From an uncultured Candidatus Saccharibacteria bacterium (GTDB lineage Bacteria > Patescibacteriota > JAQUNI01): a stretch of 64,000 nt of DNA. Below the pieces are notes generated by a model. It had not been told where the DNA came from and made no database searches. It was given only the letters and a program-made list of their open reading frames with translations. This document shows positions 1,347 through 64,000 of the stretch, in pieces. A program made the translations under genes and the position numbers. The DNA lies in the NCBI GenBank assembly GCA_964555185.1, contig CAZKRD010000001.1:303272-367271 (forward strand). Reading direction: 5' to 3'. The stretch's first letter is position 1. Each line of letters begins with the position of its first letter.

Positions 1347-2492
1347 ATGCGAAAAACACTGTTTATTACCACCATTTATCCGCCAAGCATAGGGGGGATT
1401 GAGCTCTGTCTTTATAATATTATTAAGAGGCTGCCGGAGGGTAAGGCAGTGGTTTTGACCAAGAAGGCAAAGAGGAGCTTCACTTTTGATCAAAGAGAGG
1501 ATTATCCGATTTACAGAAGGAGACTGGAGCTTCCGTATTTGAAACCGCGCTGGTTATTCTCCCCTATCTTGGCACTGCCAATAGCTTTAAAAGAAAAAGT
1601 GAAATCCGTGCAGGCGGCGCACGGCTTTGCCTCTTATTTTGCCGCTTTTTGGCTTTGGAAACTCCTAGGTCTTCCTTATTTTGTCTGGGCTTATGGCTTG
1701 GATATTTTATCAATGCGGAAATCCTGTCTTGTCTCTTGGTGGGTTAAGAGGATTTACAAAGGGGCAGAGGGCGGTGTTGCTAACAGTAATTTCACGAAGG
1801 GATTGATGATTGAGATGGGTTTAGAAGCTTCCAAGATTCGCGTGGTTTATCCAGGGGTTCAAAGTGATGATTTCAAGCCTGGTCTTCCAAAGAGAGGCGT
1901 ATTTCAGAAATATAATATTCCGGAAGGGAAAAACATCTTGCTTTCCGTTTCACGCTTGGTTTCACGCAAGGGTTTTGATTTGGTAATTCGGGCTTTGCCA
2001 GAGATTTTAAAAAAGTTCCCTAACACGGTTTATCTAATTGGCGGTCGGGGACCAGACAGTGAAAGGCTGCGCGTTTTGGCCGCCAAGAATTCTCTGGTTA
2101 AAAAGGCGGTTCGTTTCTTAGGGTTTGTTCCTGATTATGATTTAGCTTCCCTTTATAATCTAGCTTCGATTTTTTTAATGCCTTCGCGATTTATAAAAAA
2201 GCATGGTGACGTAGAGGGGTTTGGTATGGTTTTTTTAGAAGCAGGCGCCTGCGGGCGCCCGGTTATAGGCGGCAGGTCTGGCGGCATTCCGGAAGCAATT
2301 GTAGACGGGGAGACAGGATTTTTGGTTGACCCAAGGGATCCTCGTGATCTAGCAGATAAAGTGATAATGCTTTTAGGAGATTCTAATTTGCGCAAGAGAA
2401 TTGGTCAGGCAGGACGGGAAAGAGCAGTTTTAGAATTTAACTGGGATAAGATTGTTCGAAATTTCCAATTTCCAATTTCCAATTTCCATTGA
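1347..2492 (+). CDS. Glycosyltransferase, GT1/GT4 family (GT-B fold)
   Basis: 381 aa with the C-terminal motif EGFGMVFLEAGACGRPVIGGRSGGIPEAIVDGETGFLVDP typical of GT4 retaining transferases. The last 12 codons run into a heptamer tandem repeat (aatttcc). Confidence 0.8.
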   Translation: MRKTLFITTIYPPSIGGIELCLYNIIKRLPEGKAVVLTKKAKRSFTFDQREDYPIYRRRLELPYLKPRWLFSPILALPIALKEKVKSVQAAHGFASYFAAFWLWKLLGLPYFVWAYGLDILSMRKSCLVSWWVKRIYKGAEGGVANSNFTKGLMIEMGLEASKIRVVYPGVQSDDFKPGLPKRGVFQKYNIPEGKNILLSVSRLVSRKGFDLVIRALPEILKKFPNTVYLIGGRGPDSERLRVLAAKNSLVKKAVRFLGFVPDYDLASLYNLASIFLMPSRFIKKHGDVEGFGMVFLEAGACGRPVIGGRSGGIPEAIVDGETGFLVDPRDPRDLADKVIMLLGDSNLRKRIGQAGRERAVLEFNWDKIVRNFQFPISNFH

Positions 2493-2573
2493 ATTTCCAA
2501 TTTCCAAACATTTACCTTTTCAGCAGTCTAGAAAATTGGAAATTTACGATTGATCGAGTAATTATTTTTAATT
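2455..2573 (+). repeat. Heptamer tandem repeat (aatttcc, 6 or more copies) spanning the GT1 stop, with inverted words downstream
   Basis: aatttccaatttccaatttccaatttccattgaatttccaatttccaaac ... gaaaattggaaattt. It encodes the protein C-terminus ...RNFQFPISNFH. Confidence 0.6.
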
Positions 2574-8345: not shown

Positions 8346-8462
8346 TTACCAATTTACAAGGACCAATGTTCAATCAAATCCCAATTTTCAAATAGATTTA
8401 ATTTTCAAACAGTTTGAACATTTAGTCATTGGTTATTGAAAATTGATTGAAAATTGGAAATT
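8346..8462 (+). repeat. Heptamer-periodic palindromic upstream element (word aattttc / gaaaatt)
   Basis: ccaattttcaaatagatttaattttcaaac ... cattggttattgaaaattgattgaaaattggaaatt ends at the GT2 start. An 80-bp stretch is almost identical to part of 9333-9486. Confidence 0.6.
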
Positions 8463-9332: not shown

Positions 9333-9486
9333 TTTTCAATTTTCAAATCTCAATTTTCAATCAAGTCCCAATTTTCAAATAGATTTAATTTTCAAACCTG
9401 CGAAAATGGTTTTGTTTGAAAATTTATTCATTGGTTATTGAAAATTGATTAGTAAATTGGTACTTGAAAATTGAAAATTAACTAAC
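9333..9486 (+). repeat. Heptamer-periodic palindromic upstream element (aattttc repeated at least 6 times, then gaaaatt 4 times)
   Basis: aattttcaattttcaaatctcaattttcaatcaagtcccaattttcaaatagatttaattttcaaac ... ttgaaaattgattagtaaattggtacttgaaaattgaaaatt. Confidence 0.6.
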
Positions 9487-11268: not shown

Positions 11269-11332
11269 GGTTAACGAGTTAAGGGATTTGGAAATAATTC
11301 GTTAATTCGTTAATTCGTTAATCTAAGAACTT

Positions 11333-15289: not shown

Positions 15290-15434
15290 TTCTACTGGAT
15301 CAGACGCGCTGAAAATTAAAAAGAGTTCAAAGTTCAAAGTGCCTGCCTGCCGGCAGGCAGGCAAAGTTATAATTTAGTTTAAAATTTCTAATTCTAAATT
15401 CAATTTTTAATTTTGAACTTTTAACTGATATGAG
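15290..15434 (+). repeat. Heptamer-periodic palindromic upstream element (agttcaa) with GC-rich hairpin core
   Basis: agttcaaagttcaaagtgcctgcctgccggcaggcaggcaaagtt. The core gtgcctgcctgccggcaggcaggca is a perfect palindrome. Confidence 0.6.
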
Positions 15435-26926: not shown

Positions 26927-27230
26927 AAATAGAAAGTTTAAATCCTAAATCCTAAATCCTAAATCCTAAACAATTTCCCGCCTTCGCTCACGAGCTTCGG
27001 CGGACAGGCCCGCCTTGCCCCGCTTCGCGAGGTGAGCCGCAAAGCGAGGCAGGCAAAGTTCAAATGTTCAAAACCCGGCCGTACGCCTTGGCGTAGGCAA
27101 GGATTTGTTTAGAGTTTAGGCGTTGGGATTTAGGATTTTTTGAACCTTTAAGAATCCTATTTGTTTTAGATTGGGCGGTTGTGGTATAATGTCTATAAAG
27201 ATATTGTTCAATAAATCAAAATAAAACAAA
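26927..27230 (+). repeat. Heptamer-periodic palindromic element (aatccta x4 ... tttaggatttaggatt) enclosing a GC-rich structured core
   Basis: aatcctaaatcctaaatcctaaatcctaaa ... ccgccttcgctcacgagcttcggcgg ... ggcaggcaaagttcaaatgttcaaaac ... tttagagtttaggcgttgggatttaggatt. Confidence 0.6.
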
Positions 27231-28541: not shown

Positions 28542-28689
28542 AGAGGGGGAGTAATTTTTGATTTTTAATTCTTAATTTCCCATTGAATTTTTAATAAGTT
28601 AATTTTTAATTTTTAAACATTCCATTGTCTCAAATTTATCTTGTTTGGAAACTCAATCATTAAAAATTAGAAATTGAAAATTATCATTT

Positions 28690-31004: not shown

Positions 31005-31171
31005 CTCCAATCACCAAGATACAATAACCAAGTTACAAACAATAACCAATTATCCAATCACCAATCTGCCTTGCCCCGTCTCGCCGAGGCAGACGACAGA
31101 CAGGTAACCAAACCGTTTGATTATTGGTTATTGAAATTTGTTTGTTTCTTGTTTCTTGGTTATTGGTTATT
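31005..31171 (+). repeat. ~140-bp heptamer-periodic palindromic element (word caccaataacca / tggttattggtg), copy 1, with a 40-bp GC-rich insertion
   Basis: About 85% identical to 34191-34322. The internal hairpin is caatcaccaat...aaccaaaccgtttgattattggttattg. Confidence 0.7.
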
Positions 31172-34190: not shown

Positions 34191-34322
34191 TTACAATCAC
34201 CAAGAAACAATAACCAAGTTACAAACAATCATCAATCATTCAATCACCAATAACCAAACCGTTTGGTTATTGGTGATTGGTTATTGAAATTTGTTTGTAC
34301 CTTGTTTCTTGGTTATTGGTTC
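34191..34322 (+). repeat. ~140-bp heptamer-periodic palindromic element, copy 2 (direct repeat of 31005-31171)
   Basis: caatcaccaataaccaaaccgtttggttattggtgattg is a perfect 17-bp inverted repeat. The two copies flank the small-membrane-protein plus ClpB/C-like module. Confidence 0.7.
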
Positions 34323-45767: not shown

Positions 45768-45779
45768 TTGAGAGAAATA

Positions 45780-46129: not shown

Positions 46130-47401
46130 ATGAGGATTCTAGTGATTGGAGGGGGCGGAAGGGAACACACCTTGGTTTGGAAAATGGCCCAGAGTCCATT
46201 AGTTGATAAGATTTATTGCATTTCGGGCAATGCGGGAATCGCCGCATTGGCAGAGTGTGAGAAAATAGATGTAGATGGTGCGCTGGAGCCCATAGCAGAT
46301 TTTGCGCTGGATAACAGGATAGACCTGACGGTTGTTGGCCCCGAAGATCCGCTTGCAAACGGGATTGTTGACCTCTTTGCCGCTAGTAGGCTGAGAGCTT
46401 TCGGCCCGGACCAGCTAGCAACACAGATCGAGGCAAGTAAAATATTCTCAAAGGAGTTGATGTGGAAGTATGGCATTCCAACCGCCAACGCCGAGATATT
46501 TGACAACCACGAGGAGGCCACCGCATACATTCGTGATGCAGGTGTACCTATAGTGGTGAAGGCAGATGGTTCAGCTAAGGGGAAAGGCGTTATCGTTTGC
46601 CGTGATGAATTGCAGCAGGCTCTGGATGCTGTTAACACGATTATGGTGGAGAAGGCGTTTGGGAATGCTGGCAACAGGATTCTTGTAGAAGAATGTCTGG
46701 AAGGCGAGGAAGCGTCATTCATCGTTTTTACCGACGGTGAGAATATCTTACCCATGTCCTCTTCGCAGGATCACAAGCCCATATATGACGGCGATCGCGG
46801 GCTGAATACCGGAGGAATGGGAGCTTATTCGCCAGCGCCGGTAGTTACGCCAGAAGTATACGACCTTATCATGGAAACCATAATGCTGCCGACCGTAAAA
46901 GGCATGGCTGCTGAAGGGTATCCATACAAAGGTGTGTTGTATGCCGGCTTGATGATAGCCGATGGCAAACCAAAGGTTATAGAATTCAACGCACGGTTTG
47001 GCGATCCTGAAAGCCAGGCAGTACTACCAAGATTGCAAAGTGATATTGTGCCGGTAATGGAGGCCTGTATCGACGGTACACTGGACCAGGCGCAACTGGA
47101 ATGGTCGGACGAGGCGGCCGCATGTGTTGTAATGGCCTCTGGTGGGTACCCTGTAAAATACAAGAAAGGCAAAGTGATAACTGGCCTGGACGTGGCTGGT
47201 GCTATGGAAAACGTAATGGTTTTTCATGCTGGTACCGCGCGACAGGGGGGCAAGATCGTCACTAACGGCGGCAGGGTCCTTGGTGTGACAGCATTGGGTA
47301 AGGATATCGAAGAGGCGGTTATCACTGCTTACGATGCCGTAGGCAGGATATCCTTTGAGGGCGCATACTTCCGAAACGATATTGCCTATCGTGCCCTCTA
47401 A
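46130..47401 (+). CDS. purD: Phosphoribosylamine--glycine ligase (GAR synthetase)
   Basis: 423 aa. N-terminus MRILVIGGGGREHTLVWKMAQS and a central ATP-grasp fold, collinear with PurD over the full length. Strong GGAGG RBS. GC content is visibly higher than the flanking DNA, and long spurious antisense ORFs appear. Confidence 0.85.
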   Translation: MRILVIGGGGREHTLVWKMAQSPLVDKIYCISGNAGIAALAECEKIDVDGALEPIADFALDNRIDLTVVGPEDPLANGIVDLFAASRLRAFGPDQLATQIEASKIFSKELMWKYGIPTANAEIFDNHEEATAYIRDAGVPIVVKADGSAKGKGVIVCRDELQQALDAVNTIMVEKAFGNAGNRILVEECLEGEEASFIVFTDGENILPMSSSQDHKPIYDGDRGLNTGGMGAYSPAPVVTPEVYDLIMETIMLPTVKGMAAEGYPYKGVLYAGLMIADGKPKVIEFNARFGDPESQAVLPRLQSDIVPVMEACIDGTLDQAQLEWSDEAAACVVMASGGYPVKYKKGKVITGLDVAGAMENVMVFHAGTARQGGKIVTNGGRVLGVTALGKDIEEAVITAYDAVGRISFEGAYFRNDIAYRAL

Positions 47402-47439
47402 TTTTTTCATGGGGTCAACTCTCATTTTTCGATTTACTT

Positions 47440-47468
47440 AAAAAATAGAGTCGACCCATTTTTTTTCT
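47440..47468 (+). repeat. Repeat family C, copy 4
   Basis: aaaaaatagagtcgacccatttttttt, 39 nt after the purD stop. Confidence 0.5.
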
Positions 47469-47520
47469 TTCATTTTTTAAGAAGGTGAAGGGCGGATGGA
47501 TCGCTCTTTGGGTGATTTTT

Positions 47521-47529
47521 TGCTATAAT
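47521..47529 (+). promoter_or_regulatory. Extended -10 element TGcTATAAT upstream of recQ
   Basis: A perfect TATAAT with an upstream TG, 31 nt before the ATG at 47560. Confidence 0.35.
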
Positions 47530-47559
47530 CAAAGAATCTCAATCTTTCTTAAAATAAAA

Positions 47560-49737
47560 ATGAAAAAATTACTTAAAGTTCACTTTGGCTATGATCAATT
47601 CCGGCCCCTGCAGGAAGAAATCATTAGTAATGTTCTGGCCCTGAAAGACACTTTTGTCCTGATGCCCACTGGAGGCGGAAAATCTCTCTGCTACCAGCTT
47701 CCTGCAATGAAATTTTCCGGTTTGACTCTGGTGGTTTCCCCGCTTATCTCCCTGATGAAAGATCAGGTGGATTCTTTGAAAGCCAACGGCATTGAGGCGG
47801 AATTTTTGAACTCTTCGCTTCTTCCCCGGGACGCTATGGATATCCGGCAAAAAGTCCAAGCCGGCAAAACTAAGATACTGTATGTCGCGCCGGAGCGATT
47901 GGCTCTTGATTTTTTCCGTAGATTTTTGCATTCCCTCAAGTTAAGCCTTATTGCCATTGATGAAGCCCATTGTATCTCGGAATGGGGACATGATTTCCGC
48001 CCTGAATACCGTAACCTTAAATTTTTCAAAAGAGAGTTTCTCAAGGTTCCTGTTATCGCCCTGACCGCTACGGCTACGCCGAAGGTCCGGGCAGATATTA
48101 TTAAACAACTTTCCTTAAGAAAAGCGAAGCAGTTTGTTTCCAGTTTTGACCGGGAAAATTTGACCTTCTCGGTTCTGCGGAAGAAGAATGCTTTTGAAAA
48201 AGTTATGGCTCTTTTAAAGAGGCACAAAGGCGGATCGGCCATTATCTATTGTTTTTCCCGGCGCGAGACCGAAGAAATTGCCGCCAACCTGAAGATCGAA
48301 GGCATTAAAGCCCTGCCTTATCACGCCGGATTGCCCCGGGAGATCCGCAAGCGCAACCAGGAACAATTCATCAAAGACGAGGCGCGGGTCATTGCCGCGA
48401 CTATTGCCTTTGGCATGGGCATTGACAAGCCTGATGTCCGTCTGATCGTCCATTACACTTTTCCGAAAACTTTGGAAGGATATTACCAGGAAATAGGGCG
48501 CGCAGGCCGCGACGGCCTGCCGGCTGAATGCGCCCTTCTTTATTCGTACGGAGATATCCGCAAGCATGAATTCTTTTTGGGGCAGATGGAAAATACGCAG
48601 GAACAGGAGAATAGCCGCCAAAAACTTAACCAGGTTGTGGAATACTGCCAGGGAAGAGGATGCCGCCGGAAATATCTGCTCCAATATTTCGGAGAGGAGT
48701 ATCCAAGGAAAAACTGCAAGGGTTGCGACAGCTGTCTTCGGCCTAAAATAGAATATGAGGCCACCGAGATTGCCCGGAAGATCCTTTCTTGCATTCTGCG
48801 CACTGAATCCCGGTTCGGTAAAAAATATGTCATTGATCTGCTTCGAGGCAAGGCCACCGCGCGGATAACCGGCAACGGCCACCAGACTCTTTCAGTCTTT
48901 GGGATTGTCCGGGATTTGACCATTGAAGAAATGAGGGAGGTGATCAATGACCTGATTTCTCTCGGCTATCTATCTTCTTCTGAAGGAATGTATCCCACTC
49001 TTTCGGTCACAGCTCACGGCATTCAATTTCTTAAGGAAAAACAGAGCCTTACCCTTTCCCGGATAACGCAGGATCTCCTGGATTATGAAGAGGAAGAATC
49101 AGCCGGAGTGGAAGCGCAGTATGATATTCGGCTCTTTGAGAACTTGCGCGTCCTGCGAAAGCAGATCGCGGATGAGCGGGGAGTGCCGCCTTTTGTTATT
49201 TTCGGCGATGCTGCTCTATATGCAATGGCTCGGTATTTTCCGGTCGATCCAGATAATTTTTTAAGAATTCAGGGAGTGGGAGAAAGAAAGCTGGAAAGTT
49301 TTGGCAATTCTTTTATGGATGTTATTTTAAAATATGTTAAGGAGAACAAGCTTAAGCCGGAAATGGTTCCTGACCGGAGCAGAATTAAACGCAACCGGGC
49401 GCGCAGAAAAGTTAAGGCAGGTTCAACCTATCGGGAAACAAAGGAGCTGATTGATCAAAAGACCTCCCTGCGGGAGGTCGCCAGGGCGAGGGGATTAAAG
49501 CCGGGAACGATCATCAGCCATCTGGAAAAACTGGTTATAGCCCAGGCAAAGATTGATCTTGATTATCTCAAACCGTCCGGTAAAGAATGTCGGGAAATCC
49601 AATCCGCTTTTCAAAAATGCGGATACAAATGGCTTAAGCCTGCTTATGATTTTTTGGATGAGAAATATACCTACGACCAGATCCGCCTGGTCAGAGTGAT
49701 AAGTAGCATCCGGCAATCCCGGAGAGAGGCAGGGTAG
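47560..49737 (+). CDS. recQ: ATP-dependent DNA helicase RecQ (helicase, RQC zinc-binding, winged helix and HRDC-like C-terminus)
   Basis: FGYDQFRPLQEEII, P-loop MPTGGGKSLCYQLPA, DEAH (IDEAHCISEWGHDFRPEY), and a four-cysteine RQC (CRRKYLLQYF...CKGCDSC). The track start at 47485 is GTG, so the ATG at 47560 is used. An extended -10 TGcTATAAT sits at 47521-47529. Confidence 0.85.
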   Translation: MKKLLKVHFGYDQFRPLQEEIISNVLALKDTFVLMPTGGGKSLCYQLPAMKFSGLTLVVSPLISLMKDQVDSLKANGIEAEFLNSSLLPRDAMDIRQKVQAGKTKILYVAPERLALDFFRRFLHSLKLSLIAIDEAHCISEWGHDFRPEYRNLKFFKREFLKVPVIALTATATPKVRADIIKQLSLRKAKQFVSSFDRENLTFSVLRKKNAFEKVMALLKRHKGGSAIIYCFSRRETEEIAANLKIEGIKALPYHAGLPREIRKRNQEQFIKDEARVIAATIAFGMGIDKPDVRLIVHYTFPKTLEGYYQEIGRAGRDGLPAECALLYSYGDIRKHEFFLGQMENTQEQENSRQKLNQVVEYCQGRGCRRKYLLQYFGEEYPRKNCKGCDSCLRPKIEYEATEIARKILSCILRTESRFGKKYVIDLLRGKATARITGNGHQTLSVFGIVRDLTIEEMREVINDLISLGYLSSSEGMYPTLSVTAHGIQFLKEKQSLTLSRITQDLLDYEEEESAGVEAQYDIRLFENLRVLRKQIADERGVPPFVIFGDAALYAMARYFPVDPDNFLRIQGVGERKLESFGNSFMDVILKYVKENKLKPEMVPDRSRIKRNRARRKVKAGSTYRETKELIDQKTSLREVARARGLKPGTIISHLEKLVIAQAKIDLDYLKPSGKECREIQSAFQKCGYKWLKPAYDFLDEKYTYDQIRLVRVISSIRQSRREAG

Positions 49738-50035
49738 GGGGAATAGCAGATTAAAATATTCATAGGATTTTTGGGTTCAGGCCTTGCTGCGCCAAGTAAG
49801 GCGATGATCTAACAGGTGTAAGCCCCCCCCTTTTTTGGACTAGCGGTTTTGGTCCTCCTTTGGAGAATTGAACCAACAAAAAAATCGCTGTCTTGGCGGT
49901 TTTCTGATATAATGAAAATGTAAAAAGTGAGAAATCACTATAATCAGGCCCGAAAGGGCTTAAACTATTAGAAATTAAAAATGTCAAAGGGCAAAACTCG
50001 ACCGTATTGACTTTGGCCCTGTTGATCTTCCAATT

Positions 50036-51331
50036 ATGGAAATTCTATTTTGCGTATTATTATTAATTTCACTGATTTGTCTGGTGATAGGGCTTATAAG
50101 GCCCCGTTATGTTTTGATTTTTTTAGAAGGGACTAAAACGAGAAAAAAGGCGCTTTTGATTTTTGGCATACTTAGCATTATATTTCTTGTTTCATTCAGC
50201 TTGACCATCACTGTGTTCAGTCCATTTAGACAACAGCCTGGAAAGGGAATCTTTCCTGTTGTTGAAAAAGAAGCAGAAGAAGAATCCCCAGAGACTCCTC
50301 AAAAAGAAGGTTTAGAAGAAAAGAAAGTATCAGAAGAGCCAGAAGAGAGTCAGCCGGAACCAAAAGTTTACGCTGTATCCATAGGTGACATTGCCAAGAC
50401 AGAATTATTGCGGCTAACTACGTGGACCGACGGGGCGGTTTCCATGGATGTGCCCGTGAACTGGAATATTTATACCGGGGGTCAATGCGCTACAAAGTCA
50501 ATCTTAGCCAGAGATCCTTCTACTGAATTAAAGCAGGTTTTTTATTTTTCAGAAGCCGGACCGGTTTATACCAGCCAAGAATCAAAACAAAGGGATCAAA
50601 ATTATGTCGCTATGGGCGGTAATAAGCTTTCCTACTTCGAAAGTCCGGTAGTAAATCCGTTGACCGCTGAAAATTATTTAAAGAATTTTGGAGCTTTTGC
50701 TATTACTTCTTTGTTTCAACAAGCATTCCCGGAGGTTCCCGTTATGACTGATATAAAAATAATAAGCAAAAAAGAAATTACTGATAAACCGCATTATGTG
50801 ACTGATGGAAAGTTAATAAGGGCAGAATTCAAGCAAGGCGGTAAGTCAGGGGAAGGATATTTTCATATCATAACCGCGGATCTTGGGATGGGCTTCGGAT
50901 ATGGAATGATGTTTGTTGGAATGACAGCCCCGAAGGGCTTGCTTGATTTGATAACACCTTCATTAAAGAAAAGCTTAGAATCTTACGTAATAAGTCAGGA
51001 ATATGTAAGTGCTTGTTTACAGGCGCAGAATAAGGCAGCAGCCGGGATATTAAAAGCAGGCAGGATATTAAGCCAGAGTTCTGATACTATAATGGAAGTC
51101 TGGGAGAATAAGCTTGAATCAGAGCAAAGGATGTCAGAAAAATATAGTGACGCTATTTTGGGAAGCAGCAGGTTGTATAATCCTCAGACTGATGAGGTTT
51201 ATGTAGTTACCCCCGAATTCTATGATTTTTATCAAATTCATAATACAGAATTTGAGAAGAATTATTTACAAGAAATGCCCAATGATAAATGGGGTCATGC
51301 TCCTCTAAATGGGGCCGAATATATATATTAA
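50036..51331 (+). CDS. Hypothetical membrane-anchored protein (2 N-terminal TM helices, acidic linker, large extracytoplasmic domain)
   Basis: 431 aa with no recognisable family. The N-terminal hydrophobic helices are followed by an E/P-rich linker. Confidence 0.45.
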   Translation: MEILFCVLLLISLICLVIGLIRPRYVLIFLEGTKTRKKALLIFGILSIIFLVSFSLTITVFSPFRQQPGKGIFPVVEKEAEEESPETPQKEGLEEKKVSEEPEESQPEPKVYAVSIGDIAKTELLRLTTWTDGAVSMDVPVNWNIYTGGQCATKSILARDPSTELKQVFYFSEAGPVYTSQESKQRDQNYVAMGGNKLSYFESPVVNPLTAENYLKNFGAFAITSLFQQAFPEVPVMTDIKIISKKEITDKPHYVTDGKLIRAEFKQGGKSGEGYFHIITADLGMGFGYGMMFVGMTAPKGLLDLITPSLKKSLESYVISQEYVSACLQAQNKAAAGILKAGRILSQSSDTIMEVWENKLESEQRMSEKYSDAILGSSRLYNPQTDEVYVVTPEFYDFYQIHNTEFEKNYLQEMPNDKWGHAPLNGAEYIY

Positions 51332-51431
51332 ATGTGAATTATGCTAATTATTTCGCTTGTTGATTTCATAGCCTTTAGTTGCCATCTATGGAAAGGGAAA
51401 TGGGGTCAGGTTTACATTTCTATAAACAATT

Positions 51432-51854
51432 ATGTTTAAACGCAGAAAAAACGCAGAAGCGGCCTCTCGAACGGAATCGGAAGCCGCTAAAACAGCTGAA
51501 GAAAAAGAAAAGCCCAAGAGAAATTATCAGATCACTCTGCATTTTCTGGGTGGAGGTGCGCCCATATCGCCGAGTGGGGCGAGAACAGACCTTAGTGAAC
51601 AAAGCAGAATAGACCTTGCGGTGGCAATGGTGGCAAAGGCAGAAGCAGATGATTATGAGCTGACTGATACGGGGATCAACATTATCTTTCGGGGAATAGA
51701 AAAAGCAACATGGAAGGAAGCCGTTATTTTTGGCAAAGCAAGGGGCGCCAAGATTGAAGACACTTTTTCGCATTCTGTGCGGCTTGACCCTAAGAAAGAA
51801 GAGCAGGGCGTTAAGGCAATACCCTATATTGAAGATGAGCAGGAAGCGGCTTAG
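51432..51854 (+). CDS. Hypothetical protein
   Basis: 140 aa, charged N-terminus. The overlapping ORFs 51379-51612 (+) and 51420-51917 (-) were judged less likely. Confidence 0.35.
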   Translation: MFKRRKNAEAASRTESEAAKTAEEKEKPKRNYQITLHFLGGGAPISPSGARTDLSEQSRIDLAVAMVAKAEADDYELTDTGINIIFRGIEKATWKEAVIFGKARGAKIEDTFSHSVRLDPKKEEQGVKAIPYIEDEQEAA

Positions 51855-51905
51855 GCAAAGCCAGATTTTAGTCGATAAAGGAGGTTGGGGTCGAGTTTTG
51901 GGAGG

Positions 51906-51968
51906 ATTGATGGTCAAGCCTTGCTTTTTGGCATTTCGAAAAAAACTAAAACATCAAAATCAAAGCGC
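51906..51968 (+). repeat. Island repeat family A, copy 4 (candidate distal boundary of the island)
   Basis: gattgatggtcaagccttgctttttggcatttcgaaaaaaactaaaacatcaaaatcaaagcgc. About 44 of 50 positions match copy 1. Confidence 0.55.
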
Positions 51969-52065
51969 TTTTTTTATTTGACGAAAGTCTTTTTTATTTA
52001 TATTATTCAGATAGATGGTTTTCCAAAAATTTAAATAAATACAAAAACAATTTAATCAAAAATTC

Positions 52066-54296: not shown

Positions 54297-54416
54297 TTTA
54301 AAGCCAAGGCGTGCTTTTGGCCGCGGGCGAGGAGCGGCCAGTACTTTTAATGCCGGAAAAAGAAATTGAGCCGGGTACAAAGATACATTAGTCACGTGTT
54401 TGATATATTCGAAAAT

Positions 54417-54450
54417 GTTACAAAACTGGCTGATCGGCCAGTTTTGTAAC
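54417..54450 (+). promoter_or_regulatory. Operator-like palindrome, copy 2 (perfect 14-bp arms, 6-bp spacer; upstream of the NUDIX gene promoter)
   Basis: gttacaaaactggctgatcggccagttttgtaac. A promoter TTGATT-17-TAGAAT follows at 54490-54518. Confidence 0.5.
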
Positions 54451-54489
54451 GGTCTTGTTTTGTGTTTGCCGTTTAGTGCTTTGCTGGGG

Positions 54490-54952: not shown

Positions 54953-54979
54953 AAAAACAGACTCATTGATTTTTCGGGG
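54951..54979 (+). repeat. Repeat family C-like copy outside the island (part of a hairpin between convergent genes)
   Basis: aaaaaaacagactcattgatttttcgggg. CAGACTCAT (54957-54965) pairs with ATGAGTCTG (54990-54998), a 9-bp stem between the NUDIX gene (+) and the RlpA-like gene (-). Confidence 0.4.
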
Positions 54980-54986
54980 TGTCTAT

Positions 54987-55556
54987 TTATGAGTCTGCAG
55001 GAACCAGAAATTCTATGATGACATTTCCCACTCCCTCTTTTTTAAATCCGAGGTATTGAGCGAGACCCTCGGAAAGGTCAAACTTCCTTTCATGATGGGG
55101 AGTGAGATGTCCCCTTTCATTATATAGAGCTTTTACAATCCCGTTTTCAACTTTCAAGGCCCAAGGCCCTCGGTCAGTTACCCTTGTTAAGACTGATCGT
55201 TTATTCGCGGGATTTATAATTCGCACTTTTGTATTAAGAGCTAAAAGCTCTTTTGGCAAATTAGTAGCCATAGTGAAAGCGTTTTTGTTGAAGATTTCAC
55301 CGTTAGCCATTGTTCTGCCATGAAATTTGAGACCATACCAGCTCGCTCGACCTTCGATTTTTATAATTCTGTGTTTAATCCGGGTCTCTTTTTCTTGGGC
55401 GAGTTTAACGACTGGATGATACCATCCTTGAGCAAGGCTTTTGACGGGTTTTTCTACTGGCAGGAGAAAGTCGAGAATGAGAACGAGCATAAGCCCTAAG
55501 ATTAAGAATCTTACCTCTAGACCATTTTTTTCTTCTTCTTTCTTTTCTTCTTCCAT
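54987..55556 (-). CDS. RlpA-like double-psi beta-barrel (DPBB) lipoprotein
   Basis: 189 aa. ASWYGLKFHGRTMANGEIFN...ATNLP...KVRIINPANKRSVLTRVTDRGP matches the RlpA DPBB domain. A GGAGG RBS precedes the start on the minus strand. Confidence 0.65.
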   Translation of the reverse strand: MEEEKKEEEKNGLEVRFLILGLMLVLILDFLLPVEKPVKSLAQGWYHPVVKLAQEKETRIKHRIIKIEGRASWYGLKFHGRTMANGEIFNKNAFTMATNLPKELLALNTKVRIINPANKRSVLTRVTDRGPWALKVENGIVKALYNERGHLTPHHERKFDLSEGLAQYLGFKKEGVGNVIIEFLVPADS

Positions 55557-55624
55557 TTTTTCCCTCCTTGTGCTTTAATAAAGTGTTCCCCCAAAGCTTT
55601 GTTTTATAACATAGATTATAGAAT

Positions 55625-57162: not shown

Positions 57163-57256
57163 GGTTAAACTTTACAAACCTATAGAGCTCATATTGTTTT
57201 TAACTTTCAGAGAATAATTGAGCTTTTTTTATACTTTTGAAAAATTAAAAAATAAA

Positions 57257-57302
57257 CCTTCGTCCCGAGGGCGTTCGACTGAGCTCAGCCGAAGTCTTCA
57301 GG
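57257..57302 (-). repeat. 46-bp palindromic element, copy 2 (inverted orientation)
   Basis: On the + strand it reads ccttcgtcccgagggcgttcgactgagctcagccgaagtcttcagg, with the internal near-palindrome CTTCGGCTGAGCTCAGCCGAAG. It lies upstream of ftsA. Confidence 0.8.
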
Positions 57303-57457
57303 TCGAGGAAAATTCAATAAAAATTAAAAAATAAGAAATAAACAAAAAATAAGAAATAAAAAACAAAAAACACTCCCTATTATTTGCCAAACTGAAACAA
57401 AAGTTGTAAAATGATCATAGAAGCGCTGTTTTTACAGTATTGTTTTTGGTTATCAAT

Positions 57458-58720
57458 ATGGGATTATTTTCAAAATTAAAAAACAAAAAAAATAAAGGTA
57501 ATTCTGCGTTTGCTTTGGATATTGGTACGGCCGTGGTCAAAGCTTTAATTTTCCGGATTGATGAAAAAGAGGGCAAGGGTTATATTTTAGGCGTGGGTCG
57601 GGCCAATCAGGCGTTAGGAGATATGCAGTCGGGTGCGGTTACGGACATTGCCGGCGTGGTTGCGACTTGCGAGAAAGCAATTAAGGCGGCAACAGATGAG
57701 GCTCATTTCCGGCCGACCCAGGTTATTTTAGGTATTGCTGGCGAGTTGGTCAAAGGTTCAACCACCATGGTTCATTATGAACGTTTAAAACCCAAGACCA
57801 AGATTGATCTGCCCGAACTTAAGAACATTCTCCATAAGGTGCAATGGAAGGCTTTTGACAAAGTCAGAAAACAGTTGGCCTGGGAGACCGGTCATTCCGA
57901 GATTGATGTCAAGTTGATTAACGCGGCAATCGTGGATGTCCGGATTGACGGCTACCGGGTGACTAATCCTTTGGGCTTTCAGGGTAAGGATGTTTCGATC
58001 GGGATTTTTAATGCCTACGCCCCTCTTGTGCATTTGGGCGCTTTGCAAACAATCGCTTCGGAATTGGATTTGGATCTCCTTTCGATTGCAGCCGAACCTT
58101 ATGCTGTGGCGCGGGCCACGGGTCTAGAAGACGCTCCGGAGTTTTCGGCTATTTTTATTGATGTTGGCGGAGGCACCACCGATATCGCGGTCGTGCGCAA
58201 CGGCGGGGTGGAGGGGACAAAGATGTTCGCTTTGGGCGGGCGCGCTTTCACAAAGAGAATCGCTTCTGATTTGGGTGTTAGTCTGGCAGAGGCCGAGGAA
58301 ATGAAGATCAAATATTCTCGCAGCCAACTGCCAGAAGCAAAACTTGCCAAGATTAAAGAGTCCTTAACCGGTGATGTGCGGGTTTGGATTTCAGGATTAG
58401 AGCTTGCTCTCTCTGAATTTACGGAATCTGATTTGCTGCCTTCGCGGATTCTGCTTTGCGGCGGCGGTTCTTTATTGCCTGGAATTCAAGCCGCGCTTCT
58501 CAATCCGATTTGGGTTGAAAATTTGCCTTTTGCTAAGAACCCGCAAGTGAGTTTTATTAAACCAGAGGAGGTGGTTGATATCATTGATCAAACAAAGAAG
58601 TTAACCCAACCCCAGGATATTACACCAATGGCCTTGGCCAATCTCGCTATTGATTTGGCTGGACAAGAGAGGGTGGTGGGTAAAATTTTGAGAAGAGTGG
58701 TTCGGATGATGCAGACTTAG
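57458..58720 (+). CDS. ftsA: Actin-like ATPase, FtsA-like cell-division protein
   Basis: FALDIGTAVVKALIF (phosphate 1) and FIDVGGGTTDIAVV (phosphate 2), about 420 aa. The track start at 57440 is TTG, so the ATG at 57458 is used. A PilM-like identity cannot be excluded. Confidence 0.6.
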   Translation: MGLFSKLKNKKNKGNSAFALDIGTAVVKALIFRIDEKEGKGYILGVGRANQALGDMQSGAVTDIAGVVATCEKAIKAATDEAHFRPTQVILGIAGELVKGSTTMVHYERLKPKTKIDLPELKNILHKVQWKAFDKVRKQLAWETGHSEIDVKLINAAIVDVRIDGYRVTNPLGFQGKDVSIGIFNAYAPLVHLGALQTIASELDLDLLSIAAEPYAVARATGLEDAPEFSAIFIDVGGGTTDIAVVRNGGVEGTKMFALGGRAFTKRIASDLGVSLAEAEEMKIKYSRSQLPEAKLAKIKESLTGDVRVWISGLELALSEFTESDLLPSRILLCGGGSLLPGIQAALLNPIWVENLPFAKNPQVSFIKPEEVVDIIDQTKKLTQPQDITPMALANLAIDLAGQERVVGKILRRVVRMMQT

Positions 58721-58850
58721 ATTAATGCAAAATGTAAATCTCAAAATGCAAAATGATAAATCAAAATGCAAAGAGAATCCTTCCTTTTTGCATTTAGGTA
58801 ATTTTACATTTTCATTTTGATTTTTGCACTTTGAATTTTGATTTTAAATA
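58721..58850 (+). repeat. Heptamer-periodic palindromic upstream element (word aaatgca / tgcattt)
   Basis: gcaaaatgtaaatctcaaaatgcaaaatgataaatcaaaatgcaaagag ... ttttgcatttaggtaattttacattttcattttgatttttgcactttgaattttgatttt. The 7-nt periodicity is clear on both arms. Confidence 0.6.
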
Positions 58851-60590: not shown

Positions 60591-60711
60591 TGAGATATGA
60601 TCCCATTATAAGAAGACCAGGGGCCTTGCCCCATGTTTTTGACTTTATTTTAAGATATGTTATACTAAATCAGGTCTTTGTGATCACTATTTTTGGTGAT
60701 GTTTTTATATT

Positions 60712-61180: not shown

Positions 61181-61254
61181 GATTAGTTCAAAGTTCAAAA
61201 TTAAAAGTTTTGAATTCAATTTTGAATTTTGGACTTTTAACTTTTAACTAAGAT

Positions 61255-62173: not shown

Positions 62174-62318
62174 AGTGCAAATTTTTAATTTTTAGTTTTT
62201 AATTTTTATTTAATTTTTAAACATTGATCTTAAATTTTACTGTTTAAGAACTAAACCATTAGAAATTAAACATTCAATAAAAATTAAGAATTAATAATTA
62301 AGAATTGATAATTAGGAA

Positions 62319-62945: not shown

Positions 62946-63036
62946 TATTTTTAAGATCATAATTTCAAAAAAGATGCGAAGGTTTAAGAAATAGGATTCT
63001 CTATTTCCTGAATTGGGTATCTTTTACTAGAATAAG

Positions 63037-64000
63037 ATGGAAAAGATCAAATTACCTAAGCGTATTGAAGTAACCAAAGCCAAAGCCAACAAAGCCACTT
63101 TGGTGATTGAACCCTGCTTTCCTGGCTATGGCTTGACTTTGGGCAATGCTCTAAGAAGGGTGCTTCTTTCTTCTTTGTCCGGGGGTGCGGTAACCAGCAT
63201 CAAGATTAAGGGTGTCGATCATGAATTCTCCACTCTTCCTTATGTTCGTGAGGATGTAGTGGAAATTATTTTAAATTTGAAACAGTTGAGGGTCAAGGTT
63301 CACAAAGAAGAGCCAGTGAAATTTACCCTCAAGGTCAAAGGAGAAAAAGAAGTTAAAGCCTCTGATTTCAAAACGGGGAGCGATCTAGAGATCGCAAATC
63401 CAGATCTTCACATCGCCAGTCTCACCGACAAAAAGGCCGAGCTAGAGATGGAACTTCAAGCTCTCAAAGGGCGTGGCTACCAGTCTGTGGAGCAAAGAGA
63501 AGGAGAGAAGAGAGAAATCGGCGAGATTGCGATAGACGCAATCTTTACGCCGGTTAAAAAGGTGAACTGTAATATTGAGAACATCCGGGTAGGAGAGATG
63601 ACTAATTTTGACAAACTAAAGATGGAGGTTGAGACCGATGGCACAATTTCTGCCAAAGAAGCCATGGAAGAGGCGTCTCAAATTCTGACCGATCACTTTT
63701 CTCTTTTGGGCGGAATAAAGGTGAGAAAGGCCGAATCCAAAAAGACCTCAAAAGAGAGAAGCAAGGGCGTTAAGAAAAAAGTGAAATCGCCAAAGAAAGC
63801 CCTTGTGGAAAAAGTAGAAGATTTATTTTTGGAAGAGCTGAAGTTTTCAGCCCGCACATTCAATGCTCTGAAAAAGAAAAAGATTCGACGGGTTAAGGAT
63901 TTGGCCAAGATGACGGAAAAAAGATTGAGCAGTCTCTCGGGCATTGGGGCCGCGACGGTAAAAGAGGTCAAAAGAGTCTTGGGCCGCAAAGGCATCCTTT
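63037..64000 (+). CDS. rpoA: DNA-directed RNA polymerase alpha subunit (3' partial at window end)
   Basis: MEKIKLPKRIEVTKAKANKATLVIEPCFPGYGLTLGNALRRVLLSSLSGGAVTSIKIKGV... The HhH-like alpha-CTD KFSARTFNALKKKKIRRVKDL lies near the end. No stop occurs before position 64000. Confidence 0.85.
   Translation, partial: MEKIKLPKRIEVTKAKANKATLVIEPCFPGYGLTLGNALRRVLLSSLSGGAVTSIKIKGVDHEFSTLPYVREDVVEIILNLKQLRVKVHKEEPVKFTLKVKGEKEVKASDFKTGSDLEIANPDLHIASLTDKKAELEMELQALKGRGYQSVEQREGEKREIGEIAIDAIFTPVKKVNCNIENIRVGEMTNFDKLKMEVETDGTISAKEAMEEASQILTDHFSLLGGIKVRKAESKKTSKERSKGVKKKVKSPKKALVEKVEDLFLEELKFSARTFNALKKKKIRRVKDLAKMTEKRLSSLSGIGAATVKEVKRVLGRKGIL

What the first reader, a model, noticed from the sequence alone, without database searches (positions are those of the whole stretch)
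58721..58850. Genome-wide architecture: intergenic regions are built from degenerate heptamer (7-bp) tandem repeats whose 5' and 3' halves are reverse complements, ending at the start codon
At least 13 upstream regions share this design: 1140-1346, 2455-2573, 8346-8462, 9333-9486, 11270-11332, 15290-15434, 26927-27230, 28545-28689, 31005-31171, 34191-34322, 57303-57457, 58721-58850 (taken as the example), 61181-61254 and 62174-62318. Each uses its own 7-mer word, and neighbouring or distant loci sometimes share one. Word pairs include aattttc/gaaaatt, aatccta/taggatt, agttcaa/ttgaact, aaatgca/tgcattt, aatttcc/ggaaatt, cgttaat/attaacg and aataacc/ggttatt. The 7-nt phase is maintained across tens of nucleotides, for example gcaaaat-gtaaatc-tcaaaat-gcaaaat-gataaat-caaaatg. 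The 3' arm runs right up to the ATG, and these genes lack a Shine-Dalgarno sequence. If transcribed, each would form a 40-60-bp imperfect hairpin that sequesters the translation start. Several carry a GC-rich CCTGCC...GGCAGG mini-hairpin at the centre. I am not aware of a described element class with heptad periodicity plus dyad symmetry at promoters. Candidate roles are RNase III-processed leaders that generate leaderless mRNAs, nucleoid-protein binding arrays, or slippage-prone phase-variable promoters.
Basis: seen in the sequence. Interest (0 to 1): 0.8.

Follow-up and report, generated by a model that had tools for sequence, protein, structure and literature searches.

The report
Fast-changing heptamer-repeat hairpins between genes
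In this tiny uncultured (CPR/Patescibacteria) bacterium, many gaps between same-direction genes hold a run of 7-base repeats followed by its mirror-image run. These can fold into long hairpins that sit after stop codons, change far faster than other non-coding DNA, and resemble heptamer repeats known in Xanthomonas and cyanobacteria.

Summary
Intergenic DNA in the window has a period-7 signal (z = 10.8) that coding DNA lacks. Ten of the 14 listed loci have strong dyad symmetry (z 5.9-18), two are weak and two fail.

The interpretation needs correcting:
- The elements are not promoter or leader devices. They start 0-10 nt after the upstream stop codon.
- In 161 CPR sequences they occur almost only between co-oriented genes: 28/597 such spacers, 1/78 convergent, 0/111 divergent.
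- Two window copies lie upstream of canonical promoters.
- The start codon lies 6-13 nt outside the stem.
- Shine-Dalgarno sites are rare genome-wide, so their absence is not specific.
- The elements are not terminators; there is no U-tract.

They are hypermutable. Against a relative about 90% identical, ordinary spacers are 79-91% identical, but hairpin spacers at the same junctions changed word and length while still folding. Copies flank single genes and differ by one 7-nt unit. One element matches a different junction in a distant genome.

Best reading: slippage-built, locally copied inverted heptamer arrays that act as, or are tolerated as, intercistronic mRNA hairpins. Function is inferred only. 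This is a new variant of known heptameric repeat arrays.

The parts
58724..58837 (+). Example element between the FtsA-like gene (stop TAG 58718-58720) and the 579-aa gene (ATG 58851). 5' arm 58724-58777 (about 7 units of AATGCAA type), loop 58778-58781, 3' arm 58782-58837.
   Evidence: TRF period 7, 7.1 copies. 43 Watson-Crick pairs of 53 aligned, z 8.9. RNA fold -36.5 kcal/mol, z -5.5.
9333..9477 (+). Element between the GT2 gene and the DUF4012 gene. Arms 9333-9397 and 9414-9477; word CAATTTT / TTGAAAA. It starts at the first base after the stop and ends 9 nt before the ATG.
   Evidence: 51/63 pairs, z 10.1. RNA fold z -5.5.
8363..8457 (+). Paralogous copy of the 9333 element on the other side of the GT2 gene. 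Arms 8363-8409 and 8413-8457.
   Evidence: z 6.3. 80% column identity to the 9333 copy, with a 15-nt loop indel. blastn 94-96% over the arms.
2456..2549 (+). Asymmetric element. An AATTTCC array of 7.3 units (2460-2507) begins inside the 3' end of the upstream glycosyltransferase ORF. Only about 2 complementary units (2531-2549) lie opposite.
   Evidence: TRF score 68. Dyad weak, z 3.9.
11271..11313 (+). Short hairpin upstream of enolase, built from the 8-mer TAATTCGT (3.5 units). Period 8, not 7.
   Evidence: TRF 100% matches, period 8. z 6.1. RNA fold z -6.7.
15324..15426 (+). Element between the PfkB-like and FtsW genes. AGTTCAA units, a central GC-rich mini-hairpin (GCCTGCCTGCCGGCAGGCAGGC, about 15341-15365), then AATTTTT / TTGAACT units.
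   Evidence: RNA fold -40.3 kcal/mol, z -3.5. TRF at 15324 and 15402. The strand-neutral dyad score is weak, z 3.0.
26940..27138 (+). TAAATCC x4.6 array, a roughly 130-nt GC-rich centre, then GGATTTA-type units followed by TTTTTT. It lies 92 nt before the next ATG, with a TGgTATAAT promoter-like site in between.
   Evidence: 48/60 pairs, z 14.0. RNA fold z -6.2. Sequence read.
28552..28683 (+). Element between the DUF8128 gene and the VirD4/TrwB-like gene. Arms 28552-28606 and 28632-28683; word TAATTTT.
   Evidence: 40/51 pairs, z 5.9. 100% identical in three separately assembled Logan runs.
31022..31165 (+). Element upstream of the ClpB-like gene. Arms 31022-31065 and 31123-31165 (CAATAAC / GGTTATT words), carrying a 40-nt GC-rich insert at 31066-31105.
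   Evidence: z 9.4. Alignment to the 34191 copy.
34199..34320 (+). Paralogous copy downstream of the ClpB-like gene. Arms 34199-34258 and 34262-34320. It is followed by a consensus promoter (34361-34390, TTGACA-18-TATAAT) and an SD before the ATG at 34464.
   Evidence: 49/59 pairs, z 18.2. It differs from the 31005 copy by one 7-nt unit and the 40-nt insert. Promoter scores 12/12.
61185..61242 (+). Element between rpmJ (L36) and rpsM (S13). Arms 61185-61209 and 61218-61242; word AGTTCAA / TTGAACT.
   Evidence: z 5.9. Homologous hairpins at the same junction in L107 (85%) and L007 (89%).
62180..62306 (+). Element between rpsK (S11) and rpsD (S4). Arms 62180-62220 (AATTTTT x6) and 62266-62306.
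   Evidence: 35/41 pairs, z 6.4. RNA fold z -5.2. In relative L161 the 5' arm is conserved and the 3' arm is replaced by GAAAATT units.
57316..57370 (+). One-armed A-rich heptamer array (AATAAAA x8) with no complementary arm. It lies next to a GC-rich 74-nt element (57241-57314).
   Evidence: TRF. Dyad z 1.0. blastn to 20360-20433 in inverted orientation, 90%.

Best explanation
WHAT IT IS. The elements are hypermutable, quasi-palindromic tandem-repeat elements. An array of 3-8 copies of an A/T-rich word (usually 7 nt) begins within a few bases of a stop codon. A short loop follows, sometimes holding a GC-rich insert. Then comes an array of the reverse-complement word, which ends about 6-13 nt before the next start codon or before a promoter. 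They live in spacers between co-oriented housekeeping genes of a CPR/Patescibacteria bacterium with a roughly 0.7-Mb scaffold, and in many of its relatives.

HOW THEY ARISE (partly shown). Units are gained and lost by slippage within each arm. Whole elements or arms are copied between nearby spacers, and apparently between genomes. Word and length therefore turn over far faster than other non-coding DNA, while the dyad is retained.

HOW THEY WORK (inferred). They lie inside co-directional gene strings such as rpmJ-rpsM-rpsK-rpsD, so they are probably transcribed as part of polycistronic mRNA. There they would fold into 40-60-bp imperfect hairpins with a mismatch about every 7th position. Folding brings the upstream stop codon and the downstream start codon to within roughly 10-20 unpaired nucleotides. 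A ribosome terminating at the base of the stem would open the basal pairs and expose the A/U-rich, SD-less start region. [quoted passage not shown] The stem could also protect the upstream cistron's 3' end or serve as a processing site.

They are neither promoters nor intrinsic terminators.
For: Shown:
- The period-7 signal and dyads are real.
- Across 2.2 Mb of CPR sequences, 7 is the commonest period of intergenic tandem repeats (108 arrays; next is 11 with 44). It is also the commonest period of hairpin arms (69 of 150).
- The 5' end sits within 10 nt of the stop in 41 of 67 hairpins. The 3' end sits within 20 nt of the start in 39 of 67.
- Strict heptamer hairpins occur in 28/597 co-directional, 1/78 convergent and 0/111 divergent spacers. 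Period-7/14 arrays occur in 11.5%, 7.1% and 2.3% of those spacers, p = 4.6e-4.
- The same junctions carry hairpins with different words in different species: FtsA|next gene, DUF8128|VirD4-like, S11|S4 and rpmJ|S13.
- Against relative L161 (86-94% nucleotide identity), ordinary spacers are 79-91% identical. Hairpin spacers are 41-77% identical with length changes of 130 to 67 nt and 74 to 154 nt. All three hairpin spacers still fold, at -15.6, -41.2 and a long rpmJ|S13 stem.
- Paralogous copies flank GT2 and ClpB and differ by one 7-nt unit plus a 40-nt insert.
- Stem mismatches recur at lag 7, z 5.9.
- Spacer lengths form a continuum, and nested 33-, 83- and 125-nt versions of one family exist.
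- The example element has 82% column identity to L103 15862-15993, which lies at a different junction in a distant genome.
- There is no U-tract after the stems, and canonical terminators and promoters exist elsewhere.

Established knowledge used: the RNA-unfolding model of translational coupling, including the f1 gene VII/IX hairpin and rpmI-rplT at +52 nt (PMC12548453).
Against: - There is no RNA-strand signature. G-T and A-C mismatches in stems are equal (154 vs 149).
- Sense and antisense fold energies are equal (33 vs 33 hairpins, p = 0.95).
- Only 1 compensatory pair was found in an 8-member family.
- The elements are optional. Several relatives have the same genes abutting with 0-15 nt between them, so no essential role is implied.
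- One-armed and non-dyad arrays occupy the same junctions (L063, L119/L043).
- Structure just downstream of a stop codon has been reported to reduce coupling in a synthetic operon (cited in PMC12548453).
- No transcript, ribosome or RNase data are available.
- Gene starts were called crudely (first start codon in the ORF), so distances to starts carry error.
Confidence: 0.45

Rival explanations
1. Selfish or neutral DNA. The elements are palindromic microsatellites produced by replication slippage, template switching and local copying. They have no RNA-level function. They persist only where they do little harm, namely spacers inside gene strings, where a self-folding insert does not separate the stop from the start.
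For: - Mismatches and fold energies are strand-symmetric.
- The elements are optional at every junction examined.
- Turnover is extreme compared with other spacers.
- There are multi-copy local families, and the same family sits at different junctions in different genomes.
- One-armed arrays exist.
- Logan assemblies break inside the elements.
- The published idea that 7 nt is favoured by polymerase slippage is reported in PMC4679880 and PMC4692102.
Against: - Genomes of about 0.7 Mb with strong deletion pressure keep 70-150-nt elements at the same junctions across family-level divergence.
- The hairpin is retained even when the word is replaced, in 3 of 3 junctions against L161.
- The elements are depleted from divergent spacers.
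- There is a modest orientation bias: the 5' arm is A-rich in 42 hairpins and T-rich in 22.
Confidence: 0.3
2. RNase III (or other double-strand RNase) processing sites. These would cut polycistronic transcripts into separately stable mRNAs, as between the early genes of phage T7. This can coexist with the best explanation.
For: - Stems of 40-60 bp are predicted in intercistronic positions.
- The elements sit inside the ribosomal-protein gene string.
- There are no terminator tails.
- T7 intercistronic RNase III sites are the analogy; this rests on my own knowledge.
Against: - No cleavage data exist.
- Stems are interrupted about every 7 nt.
- No conserved internal-loop motif was seen.
- No RNA-strand signature was found.
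- Presence of the enzyme in this genome was not checked; it is not in the window.
Confidence: 0.12
3. The elements are 5' leader or promoter devices: hairpins that sequester the start codon, leaderless-mRNA generators, or slippage-driven phase-variable promoters.
For: - The 3' arms are T-rich and often contain TTG words.
- One weak -10-like site sits 6 nt before the rpsD ATG (62307-62312).
- Heptamer arrays are in principle slippage-prone.
Against: - None occur in divergent spacers.
- The elements are anchored at stop codons.
- Consensus promoters lie downstream of two elements.
- The ATG is outside the stem.
- No conserved motif lies upstream of the starts.
- The flanking genes are housekeeping genes, not surface or contingency genes.
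- The hairpin is identical in three separately assembled runs.
Confidence: 0.06
4. Rho-independent transcription terminators with unusually long A/T-rich stems.
For: - The elements sit right after stop codons.
- 26927 ends in TTTTTT and 34191 is followed by a T-rich stretch and then a promoter.
Against: - The mean T count in the 8 nt after the stem is 2.97 against 2.83 expected. Only 7 of 66 hairpins have 5 or more T.
- Canonical GC-stem plus T-run terminators exist elsewhere in the same window (34943-34961, 60620-60632, 54416-54451). These are what occupy convergent spacers in relatives.
- The elements lie inside the ribosomal-protein operon.
Confidence: 0.04
5. Arrays of binding sites for a DNA- or RNA-binding protein with a 7-nt footprint, for example a nucleoid protein, or a cold-shock-domain protein on single strands. 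Alternatively, attC-like recombination sites flanking cassettes.
For: - Conserved cores are separated by variable positions at fixed spacing.
- The TACGAAT and ACAGAA words are conserved across species.
- Identical hairpins flank GT2 and ClpB like cassette boundaries.
- CspB binds one heptamer per protein, as noted in PMC4679880.
Against: - Dozens of unrelated words occur within one genome, so no single sequence-specific protein fits.
- The window holds no integrase or transposase, and the flanked genes are core genes.
- No attC-like R/L core sites were seen by eye.
Confidence: 0.03

Closest known systems
Xanthomonas GGGAATC heptameric repeats, including 70-75 inverted pairs per genome (Rehm et al. 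2015, PMC4692102)
   Same: - Tandem 7-nt units lie in intergenic DNA.
- Many are arranged as two arrays on opposite strands that can form stem-loops.
- Position and type are conserved between related species while length varies.
- Most are transcribed.
   Different: Xanthomonas uses one G-rich, G-quadruplex-prone word genome-wide. Here each locus or small family has its own A/T-rich word. The elements fill the stop-to-start gap and are confined to co-oriented junctions.
Heptanucleotide long simple-sequence repeats of prokaryotes, and cyanobacterial STRR / Nostoc heptamer arrays with embedded small dispersed repeats (Mrazek 2007 as cited in PMC4679880 and PMC4692102; Mazel 1990 and Elhai 2008 from my own knowledge)
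   Same: - Seven is the preferred unit length.
- The location is intergenic.
- Slippage is the proposed origin.
- Small GC-rich hairpin inserts sit inside the arrays, here at 31066-31105 and 15341-15365.
   Different: A dyad arrangement is not a defining feature of those repeats. The host here is a CPR bacterium. Words are many and A/T-rich.
TAACTGA direct repeats of marine Beggiatoaceae (MacGregor 2015, PMC4679880)
   Same: These are heptamer arrays in a fixed orientation just upstream of start codons, and a translational role has been proposed for them.
   Different: There is a single word, the repeats are direct, and only one inverted case was reported. The TAACT[AG] motif is not enriched here: 2/39 against 12/670.
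REP/BIME, ERIC and Correia-type intergenic palindromic repeats (my own knowledge; overview in PMC3733652 and PMC3184786 as listed)
   Same: They are imperfect palindromes of 40-150 nt in transcribed spacers. They form multi-copy families, and they fold in mRNA and can affect stability.
   Different: Those families have a genome-wide consensus, no internal tandem periodicity and, for MITEs, terminal repeats with target duplications. Here families are small, internally periodic and replaced within about 10% sequence divergence.
Structure-mediated translational coupling (f1 genes VII/IX, rpmI-rplT, MS2), reviewed in PMC12548453
   Same: A hairpin next to the downstream start is opened by the ribosome finishing the upstream gene.
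   Different: The known cases are single conserved structures that overlap the ribosome-binding site. Here the stem spans the whole spacer, the start is just outside it, and coupling is untested.

Membership tests
Heptanucleotide long simple-sequence repeats (LSSR) | Head-to-tail copies of a 7-nt unit, at least 2-3 units | tested here: met
   TRF finds period-7 arrays of 2.3-9.4 copies at 12 of the listed loci.
Heptanucleotide long simple-sequence repeats (LSSR) | Over-representation in intergenic DNA relative to chance and to other unit lengths | tested here: met
   Lag-7 z = 10.8 in the window. In 2.2 Mb of CPR sequences, intergenic TRF arrays number 108 at period 7 against 36, 36 and 44 at periods 8, 9 and 11.
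Heptanucleotide long simple-sequence repeats (LSSR) | Unit-number change by slippage (length polymorphism) | tested here: inconclusive
   There is a 7-nt indel between the ClpB-flanking copies. Gap lengths among homologous hairpins show a small bump at 7 (6 cases, against 3 at 6 and 1 at 8). Three assembled runs show no variation at 28545-28689. Read-level data are not available.
Xanthomonas / STRR-type single-word heptamer families | One or a few words used genome-wide | tested here: not met
   The window alone has at least 8 unrelated words, and the CPR survey found 29 heptamer hairpins carrying about 24 different consensus words.
Xanthomonas-type inverted heptamer pairs | Two arrays of complementary words in convergent orientation, close together | tested here: met
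   10 of 14 loci have dyad z of 5.9 or more.
REP / ERIC / MITE-like dispersed palindromic repeats | Many dispersed copies sharing a consensus | tested here: inconclusive
   Only pairs are seen within 64 kb (8346/9333, 31005/34191, 15290/61181). Families of up to 8 copies are seen across 4 genomes.
REP / ERIC / MITE-like dispersed palindromic repeats | Terminal inverted repeats with target-site duplication, or an associated RAYT or transposase | tested here: not met
   No duplication is visible at filled versus empty junctions. No transposase-like Pfam hit appears in the roughly 50 window ORFs scanned.
Intrinsic (Rho-independent) terminators | U-tract immediately after the stem | tested here: not met
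   2.97 T in the 8-nt tail against 2.83 expected. 7 of 66 hairpins have 5 or more T.
Phase-variable (contingency) promoter repeats | The repeat lies in the promoter or 5' region of a variable gene and varies in copy number within populations | tested here: not met
   The elements are absent from divergent spacers. They sit next to housekeeping genes. The sequence is identical in three runs. Read-level variation was not testable.
RNase III processing sites | Cleavage in a stem of at least about 20 bp of double-stranded RNA, leaving a 2-nt 3' overhang | not testable with these tools
   Only the stem is predicted. No RNA end data exist.
Known RNA families (Rfam 15) | Match at gathering score | tested here: not met
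   The only hit in the window is a tRNA at 38434-38505.
Integron attC sites | Integrase nearby, conserved R''/L''-L'/R' cores, and promoterless accessory cassettes | tested here: not met
   No integrase-like Pfam hit in the window. The flanked genes are core genes such as ClpB, ribosomal proteins and enolase. Core sites were inspected only by eye.

The most novel reading that the evidence does not exclude
The elements would be a new kind of non-autonomous 'junction element': a hairpin built from heptamer arrays that is copied, by a mechanism not encoded nearby, precisely into the gap between a stop codon and the next start codon. It would be exchanged between spacers and even between distant CPR genomes. 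It would be tolerated because folding lets the terminating ribosome reach the next start across a spacer of 100 nt or more, a bacterial analogue of ribosome shunting. The lead is that the window's FtsA-junction element resembles an element at another junction in a distant genome (82%) far more than it resembles the orthologous spacer of a relative about 90% identical (45%).
Probability: 0.15. Interest if true: 0.8.

Novelty: new variant of a known kind. Interest (0 to 1): 0.55.

Why it matters
CPR/Patescibacteria have some of the smallest and most streamlined genomes known, yet they keep 70-150-nt repeat hairpins between essential genes, including inside the ribosomal-protein gene string.

If the hairpins matter for expression, they would show how SD-poor organisms organise operon translation and mRNA stability. 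If they are selfish, they are a clear case of hypermutable DNA surviving strong genome reduction.

They also have practical consequences:
- They break assemblies; Logan contigs end inside them.
- They could serve as strain markers.
- They may explain why CPR phyla top a recent survey of inverted-repeat density (PMC13155455).
- They extend the long-unexplained preference for 7-nt repeat units to a new major lineage, in a form that can be tested with reporters.

Tried and rejected
- RNA-strand signature. G-U versus A-C mismatches (154 vs 149) and sense versus antisense fold energy (33 vs 33) show no difference, so RNA-level selection could not be demonstrated.
- Covariation. An 8-member ACAGAA family gave only 1 compensatory pair because the cores are invariant. 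L017/L018/L095 are too similar to be informative.
- Terminator idea. Rejected by tail composition.
- Leaderless promoter idea. The consensus scan found no consistent -10 element at the right distance, and no motif is shared upstream of hairpin-abutting starts.
- TAACTGA-like motif (Beggiatoaceae). Not enriched.
- GGCAGGCAAA motif of the GC-rich centres. Not significantly repeated.
- Rfam. Only a tRNA was found.
- Exact-protein look-ups for S13 and the FtsA-like protein found nothing. The source scaffold was later found through the DUF8128 protein.
- Strain-level polymorphism. The three Logan run assemblies are 100% identical to the window over 2.7-4.1 kb, so no slippage variants were seen.
- Viral contigs. 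No exact match to the core of the example element.
- Bimodality of spacer length, expected for discrete insertions. Not seen; lengths form a continuum.
- TIGR-Tas arrays, which surfaced in a literature search. Their guide units are far longer than 7 nt (my own knowledge), and no Pfam hit suggesting a Tas protein turned up among the window ORFs scanned. I did not pursue them.
- Mrazek 2007 could not be read directly. It is cited through two papers that summarise it.
Full report
CONTEXT. The window is a piece of a bacterial chromosome with about 42% G+C. Almost every gene is on the + strand. The genes are housekeeping: ScpA, glycosyltransferases, enolase, iPGM, FtsW, MurG/C/B, SecA, SecDF, a ClpB-like ATPase, AlaRS, RecQ, an FtsA-like protein, IF-1, L36, S13, S11 and S4. 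The FtsA-like protein has relatives only in CPR/Patescibacteria genome bins, labelled Moranbacteria, Doudnabacteria, Berkelbacteria and so on. The best matches are 82% among species representatives and 80-85% in metagenomes. The window is 100% identical to part of a 706,972-bp scaffold, BAEC19-1 scaffold_1. I fetched 160 related CPR sequences (2.2 Mb), plus a close relative, L161, with 86-94% nucleotide identity.

- In 7.95 kb of window spacers, the fraction of identical bases at lag 7 is 0.338 against 0.281 +/- 0.005 in dinucleotide-preserving shuffles (z = 10.8). There are shoulders at lags 6 and 8 and a harmonic at 14. Coding DNA shows only the codon period.
- TRF calls period-7 arrays at 12 of the 14 listed loci.
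- A strand-neutral hairpin alignment, compared with shuffles, gives z = 5.9-18.2 at ten loci.
- ViennaRNA gives z of -5 to -7 for the larger hairpins. The example folds at -36.5 kcal/mol, z = -5.5.
- Exceptions: 1140-1346 and 57303-57457 have no dyad; 2455 and 15290 are weak; 11270 has period 8.
- The GC-rich central mini-hairpins are real (15341-15365, about 26975-27060, 31066-31105).

THE FEATURE IS GENERAL IN THIS PART OF THE CPR.
- In the 161 sequences (the window plus 160 loci) I found 67 distinct long hairpins in spacers between co-oriented genes. The best arm period is 7 in 69 of 150 arms and 8 in 23.
- Among all TRF arrays in intergenic DNA, period 7 is by far the commonest: 108, with 44 at period 11 next.
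- The words are A/T-rich with one or two C or G, and differ from locus to locus.

WHERE THE ELEMENTS SIT.
- The 5' end of the stem is within 10 nt of the upstream stop codon in 41 of 67 cases, and within 3 nt in 27. The distance to the next start is more variable: median 16 nt, up to 279.
- Strict heptamer hairpins occur in 28 of 597 co-directional spacers, 1 of 78 convergent and 0 of 111 divergent. Within hairpin-bearing sequences the long-hairpin counts (score 36 or more) are 67/291 against 0/41, p = 9e-5.
- Period-7/14 arrays occur in 11.5%, 7.1% and 2.3% of those spacers, p = 4.6e-4.
- The elements therefore need a gene end upstream and avoid promoter-only spacers.
- In the window, 26927 and 34191 are followed by promoters. 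The second promoter is a perfect TTGACA-18-TATAAT at 34361-34390, followed by an SD.
- Where the element abuts the next gene, the ATG lies 6-13 nt beyond the stem rather than inside it.
- SD motifs are rare everywhere: about 5 of 52 window genes; 17% of non-hairpin starts and 10% of hairpin-abutting starts in the survey. 'No SD' is a property of the organism, not of these genes.
- No shared motif precedes hairpin-abutting starts.

NOT TERMINATORS. The 8 nt after the stems hold 2.97 T on average against 2.83 expected. Classical GC-stem plus T-run terminators exist elsewhere in the window (34943-34961, 60620-60632, 54416-54451). These are what fill convergent spacers in relatives. Rfam finds nothing but a tRNA.

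HOW THE ELEMENTS EVOLVE. This is the most informative result.
(a) The same gene junctions carry hairpins in many species, but with unrelated words. Examples are FtsA|next gene, DUF8128|VirD4-like, S11|S4 and rpmJ|S13. Other relatives have the two genes abutting with 0-15 nt between them. Spacer lengths at the FtsA junction form a continuum from 0 to about 140 nt. One family exists in nested 33-, 83- and 125-nt versions that share their outer ends.
(b) Comparison with L161 is a direct test.
- Ordinary spacers are 79-91% identical with nearly equal lengths. These include 579aa|IF-1 with its terminator and promoter, the rpmJ leader, and the S4|rpoA structured spacer.
- The three heptamer hairpin spacers are 45%, 41% and 77% identical.
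- FtsA|579aa went from 130 to 67 nt with a new word (GAATTCn).
- rpmJ|S13 went from 74 to 154 nt with a new word (CAATTTT).
- S11|S4 kept its 5' arm exactly but has a different 3' arm (GAAAATT units).
- All three still fold into long stems.
(c) Within the window, near-identical copies flank single genes. GT2 has 8346 and 9333; the ClpB-like gene has 31005 and 34191. The second pair differs by one 7-nt unit and a 40-nt GC-rich insert.
(d) The example element has 82% column identity over both arms to L103 15862-15993. That site lies at a different junction in a genome whose FtsA-like protein is only 62% identical. The L161 S11|S4 and L13|S9 spacers resemble the window's 9333 element. An ACAGAA family (period 10) has 8 copies at four or more junctions in four genomes.
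(e) Mismatches in the stems recur at lag 7 (z 5.9). This is what unit turnover within each arm would produce.
(f) Three separately assembled sequencing runs give a 28545-28689 hairpin identical to the window. Their contigs end inside the 26927 and 31005 elements. The elements are therefore not hypervariable at the consensus level within these samples, but they do break assemblies.

DNA OR RNA? I could not show an RNA-level signature.
- G-T and A-C mismatches are equal (154 vs 149).
- Sense and antisense fold energies are equal (33 vs 33).
- Covariation is nearly absent because family cores are invariant.
- A modest orientation bias exists: the 5' arm is A-rich in 42 hairpins and T-rich in 22.
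- The dyad is thus maintained either by a strand-symmetric DNA process or by weak selection on a very long stem.

BEST EXPLANATION, WITH SHOWN AND INFERRED STEPS MARKED.
- Shown: these are hypermutable inverted arrays of short (mostly 7-nt) tandem units. They are anchored after stop codons in co-directional gene strings, conserved in position and fold, and not conserved in sequence.
- Partly shown: they grow and shrink by unit slippage and are copied between spacers.
- Inferred: they are transcribed within operon mRNAs, since they sit inside rpmJ-rpsM-rpsK-rpsD. Folding brings the stop and the next start to within about 10-20 unpaired nucleotides. A terminating ribosome would open the base of the stem and free the A/U-rich start region. 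This is the RNA-unfolding model of translational coupling reviewed in PMC12548453. 3'-end protection or RNase III cutting are possible additions.
- Main rival: they are selfish or neutral DNA that survives only where self-folding makes it harmless. I give the composite best explanation 0.45 and this rival 0.30.

COMPARISON WITH WHAT IS KNOWN.
- Heptanucleotide repeats are the most over-represented long simple-sequence repeats in many prokaryotes, and polymerase slippage has been proposed as the reason (Mrazek 2007, as summarised in PMC4679880 and PMC4692102).
- Xanthomonas has about 185 GGGAATC arrays. Of these, 70-75 form inverted pairs that could make stem-loops, with position conserved and length variable between species.
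- Marine Beggiatoaceae carry TAACTGA repeats just upstream of start codons.
- Cyanobacterial STRR and Nostoc heptamer arrays carry small hairpin inserts (my own knowledge).
- CPR phyla have the highest inverted-repeat density of all phyla in a 2026 survey, which does not mention periodicity (PMC13155455).
- I found no paper that describes heptamer-built hairpins in CPR genomes.
- What is different here: many locus-specific A/T-rich words; stop-to-start filling; restriction to co-oriented junctions; and replacement of word and length within about 10% sequence divergence while the fold persists.
- I file it as a new variant of a known kind.

VERDICT. Interest is 0.55. The finding is a robust, apparently undescribed feature of CPR genomes with striking evolutionary behaviour, but its function is unproven and it has clear precedents in other phyla.

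Noticed in passing
window 38434-52000: A tRNA gene (38434-38505) is followed by a low-GC (37-39%) stretch. It encodes RadC, a MazG-like protein, a Schlafen-type helicase, Bflower plus a SLATT-like protein, NUDIX, a DUF559 nuclease and a GNAT. Roughly 75-nt direct repeats begin right after the tRNA (38512) and recur at 41548, 45019 and 51908, along with several other short repeat families. It looks like a tRNA-adjacent variable or defence island with repeated boundary sequences.
   Followed up: partly
window 20360-20433 and 57241-57314: A 74-nt GC-rich, hairpin-forming element is present twice in opposite orientations (90% identity). Each copy sits in an A/T-rich spacer.
   Followed up: partly
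window 31066-31105 (also about 26975-27060 and 15341-15365): GC-rich inserts or mini-palindromes sit at the centre of heptamer hairpins. The 40-nt insert is the main difference between the two ClpB-flanking copies. This recalls the small dispersed repeats embedded in Nostoc heptamer arrays (my own knowledge).
   Followed up: partly
window 31172-31564 / 31527-34190: The ClpB-like gene is split into two overlapping ORFs in different frames. This could be a frameshift, an assembly error or a real split. The source annotation calls only an 859-aa product.
   Followed up: no
window 25689-25731 and 54410-54450: Two distant spacers share a roughly 40-nt palindromic, terminator-like sequence (TGTTACAAAACTGGC...GCCAGTTTTGTAACA).
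   Followed up: no
window 62946-63040 and L161 14118-14208: The S4|rpoA spacer holds a non-repetitive hairpin that is 91% conserved in the close relative. It may be a conventional structured RNA, and it served here as a slow-evolving control.
   Followed up: partly
window-wide gene starts: Only about 5 of 52 genes have a clear GGAGG-type Shine-Dalgarno site (30438, 34464, 46130, 56638 and perhaps 54542). The rest have A/T-rich upstream regions, so the organism appears to initiate translation mostly without SD.
   Followed up: partly
L063, L044 and L105 (FtsA|next and rpmJ|rpsM spacers): Other oddities occupy the same junctions. L063 has a 14-mer direct array of 8 copies with no dyad. L044 has a perfect 40-bp GC-rich hairpin. 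L105 has TTAGCCA x4 followed by GAGCTAA/AAGCTAA x5.
   Followed up: no
window 54953-55624 versus L161 6809-7023: The only clear minus-strand ORF of this part of the window (54987-55556) is missing from the close relative, whose spacer is 215 nt instead of 672 nt.
   Followed up: no
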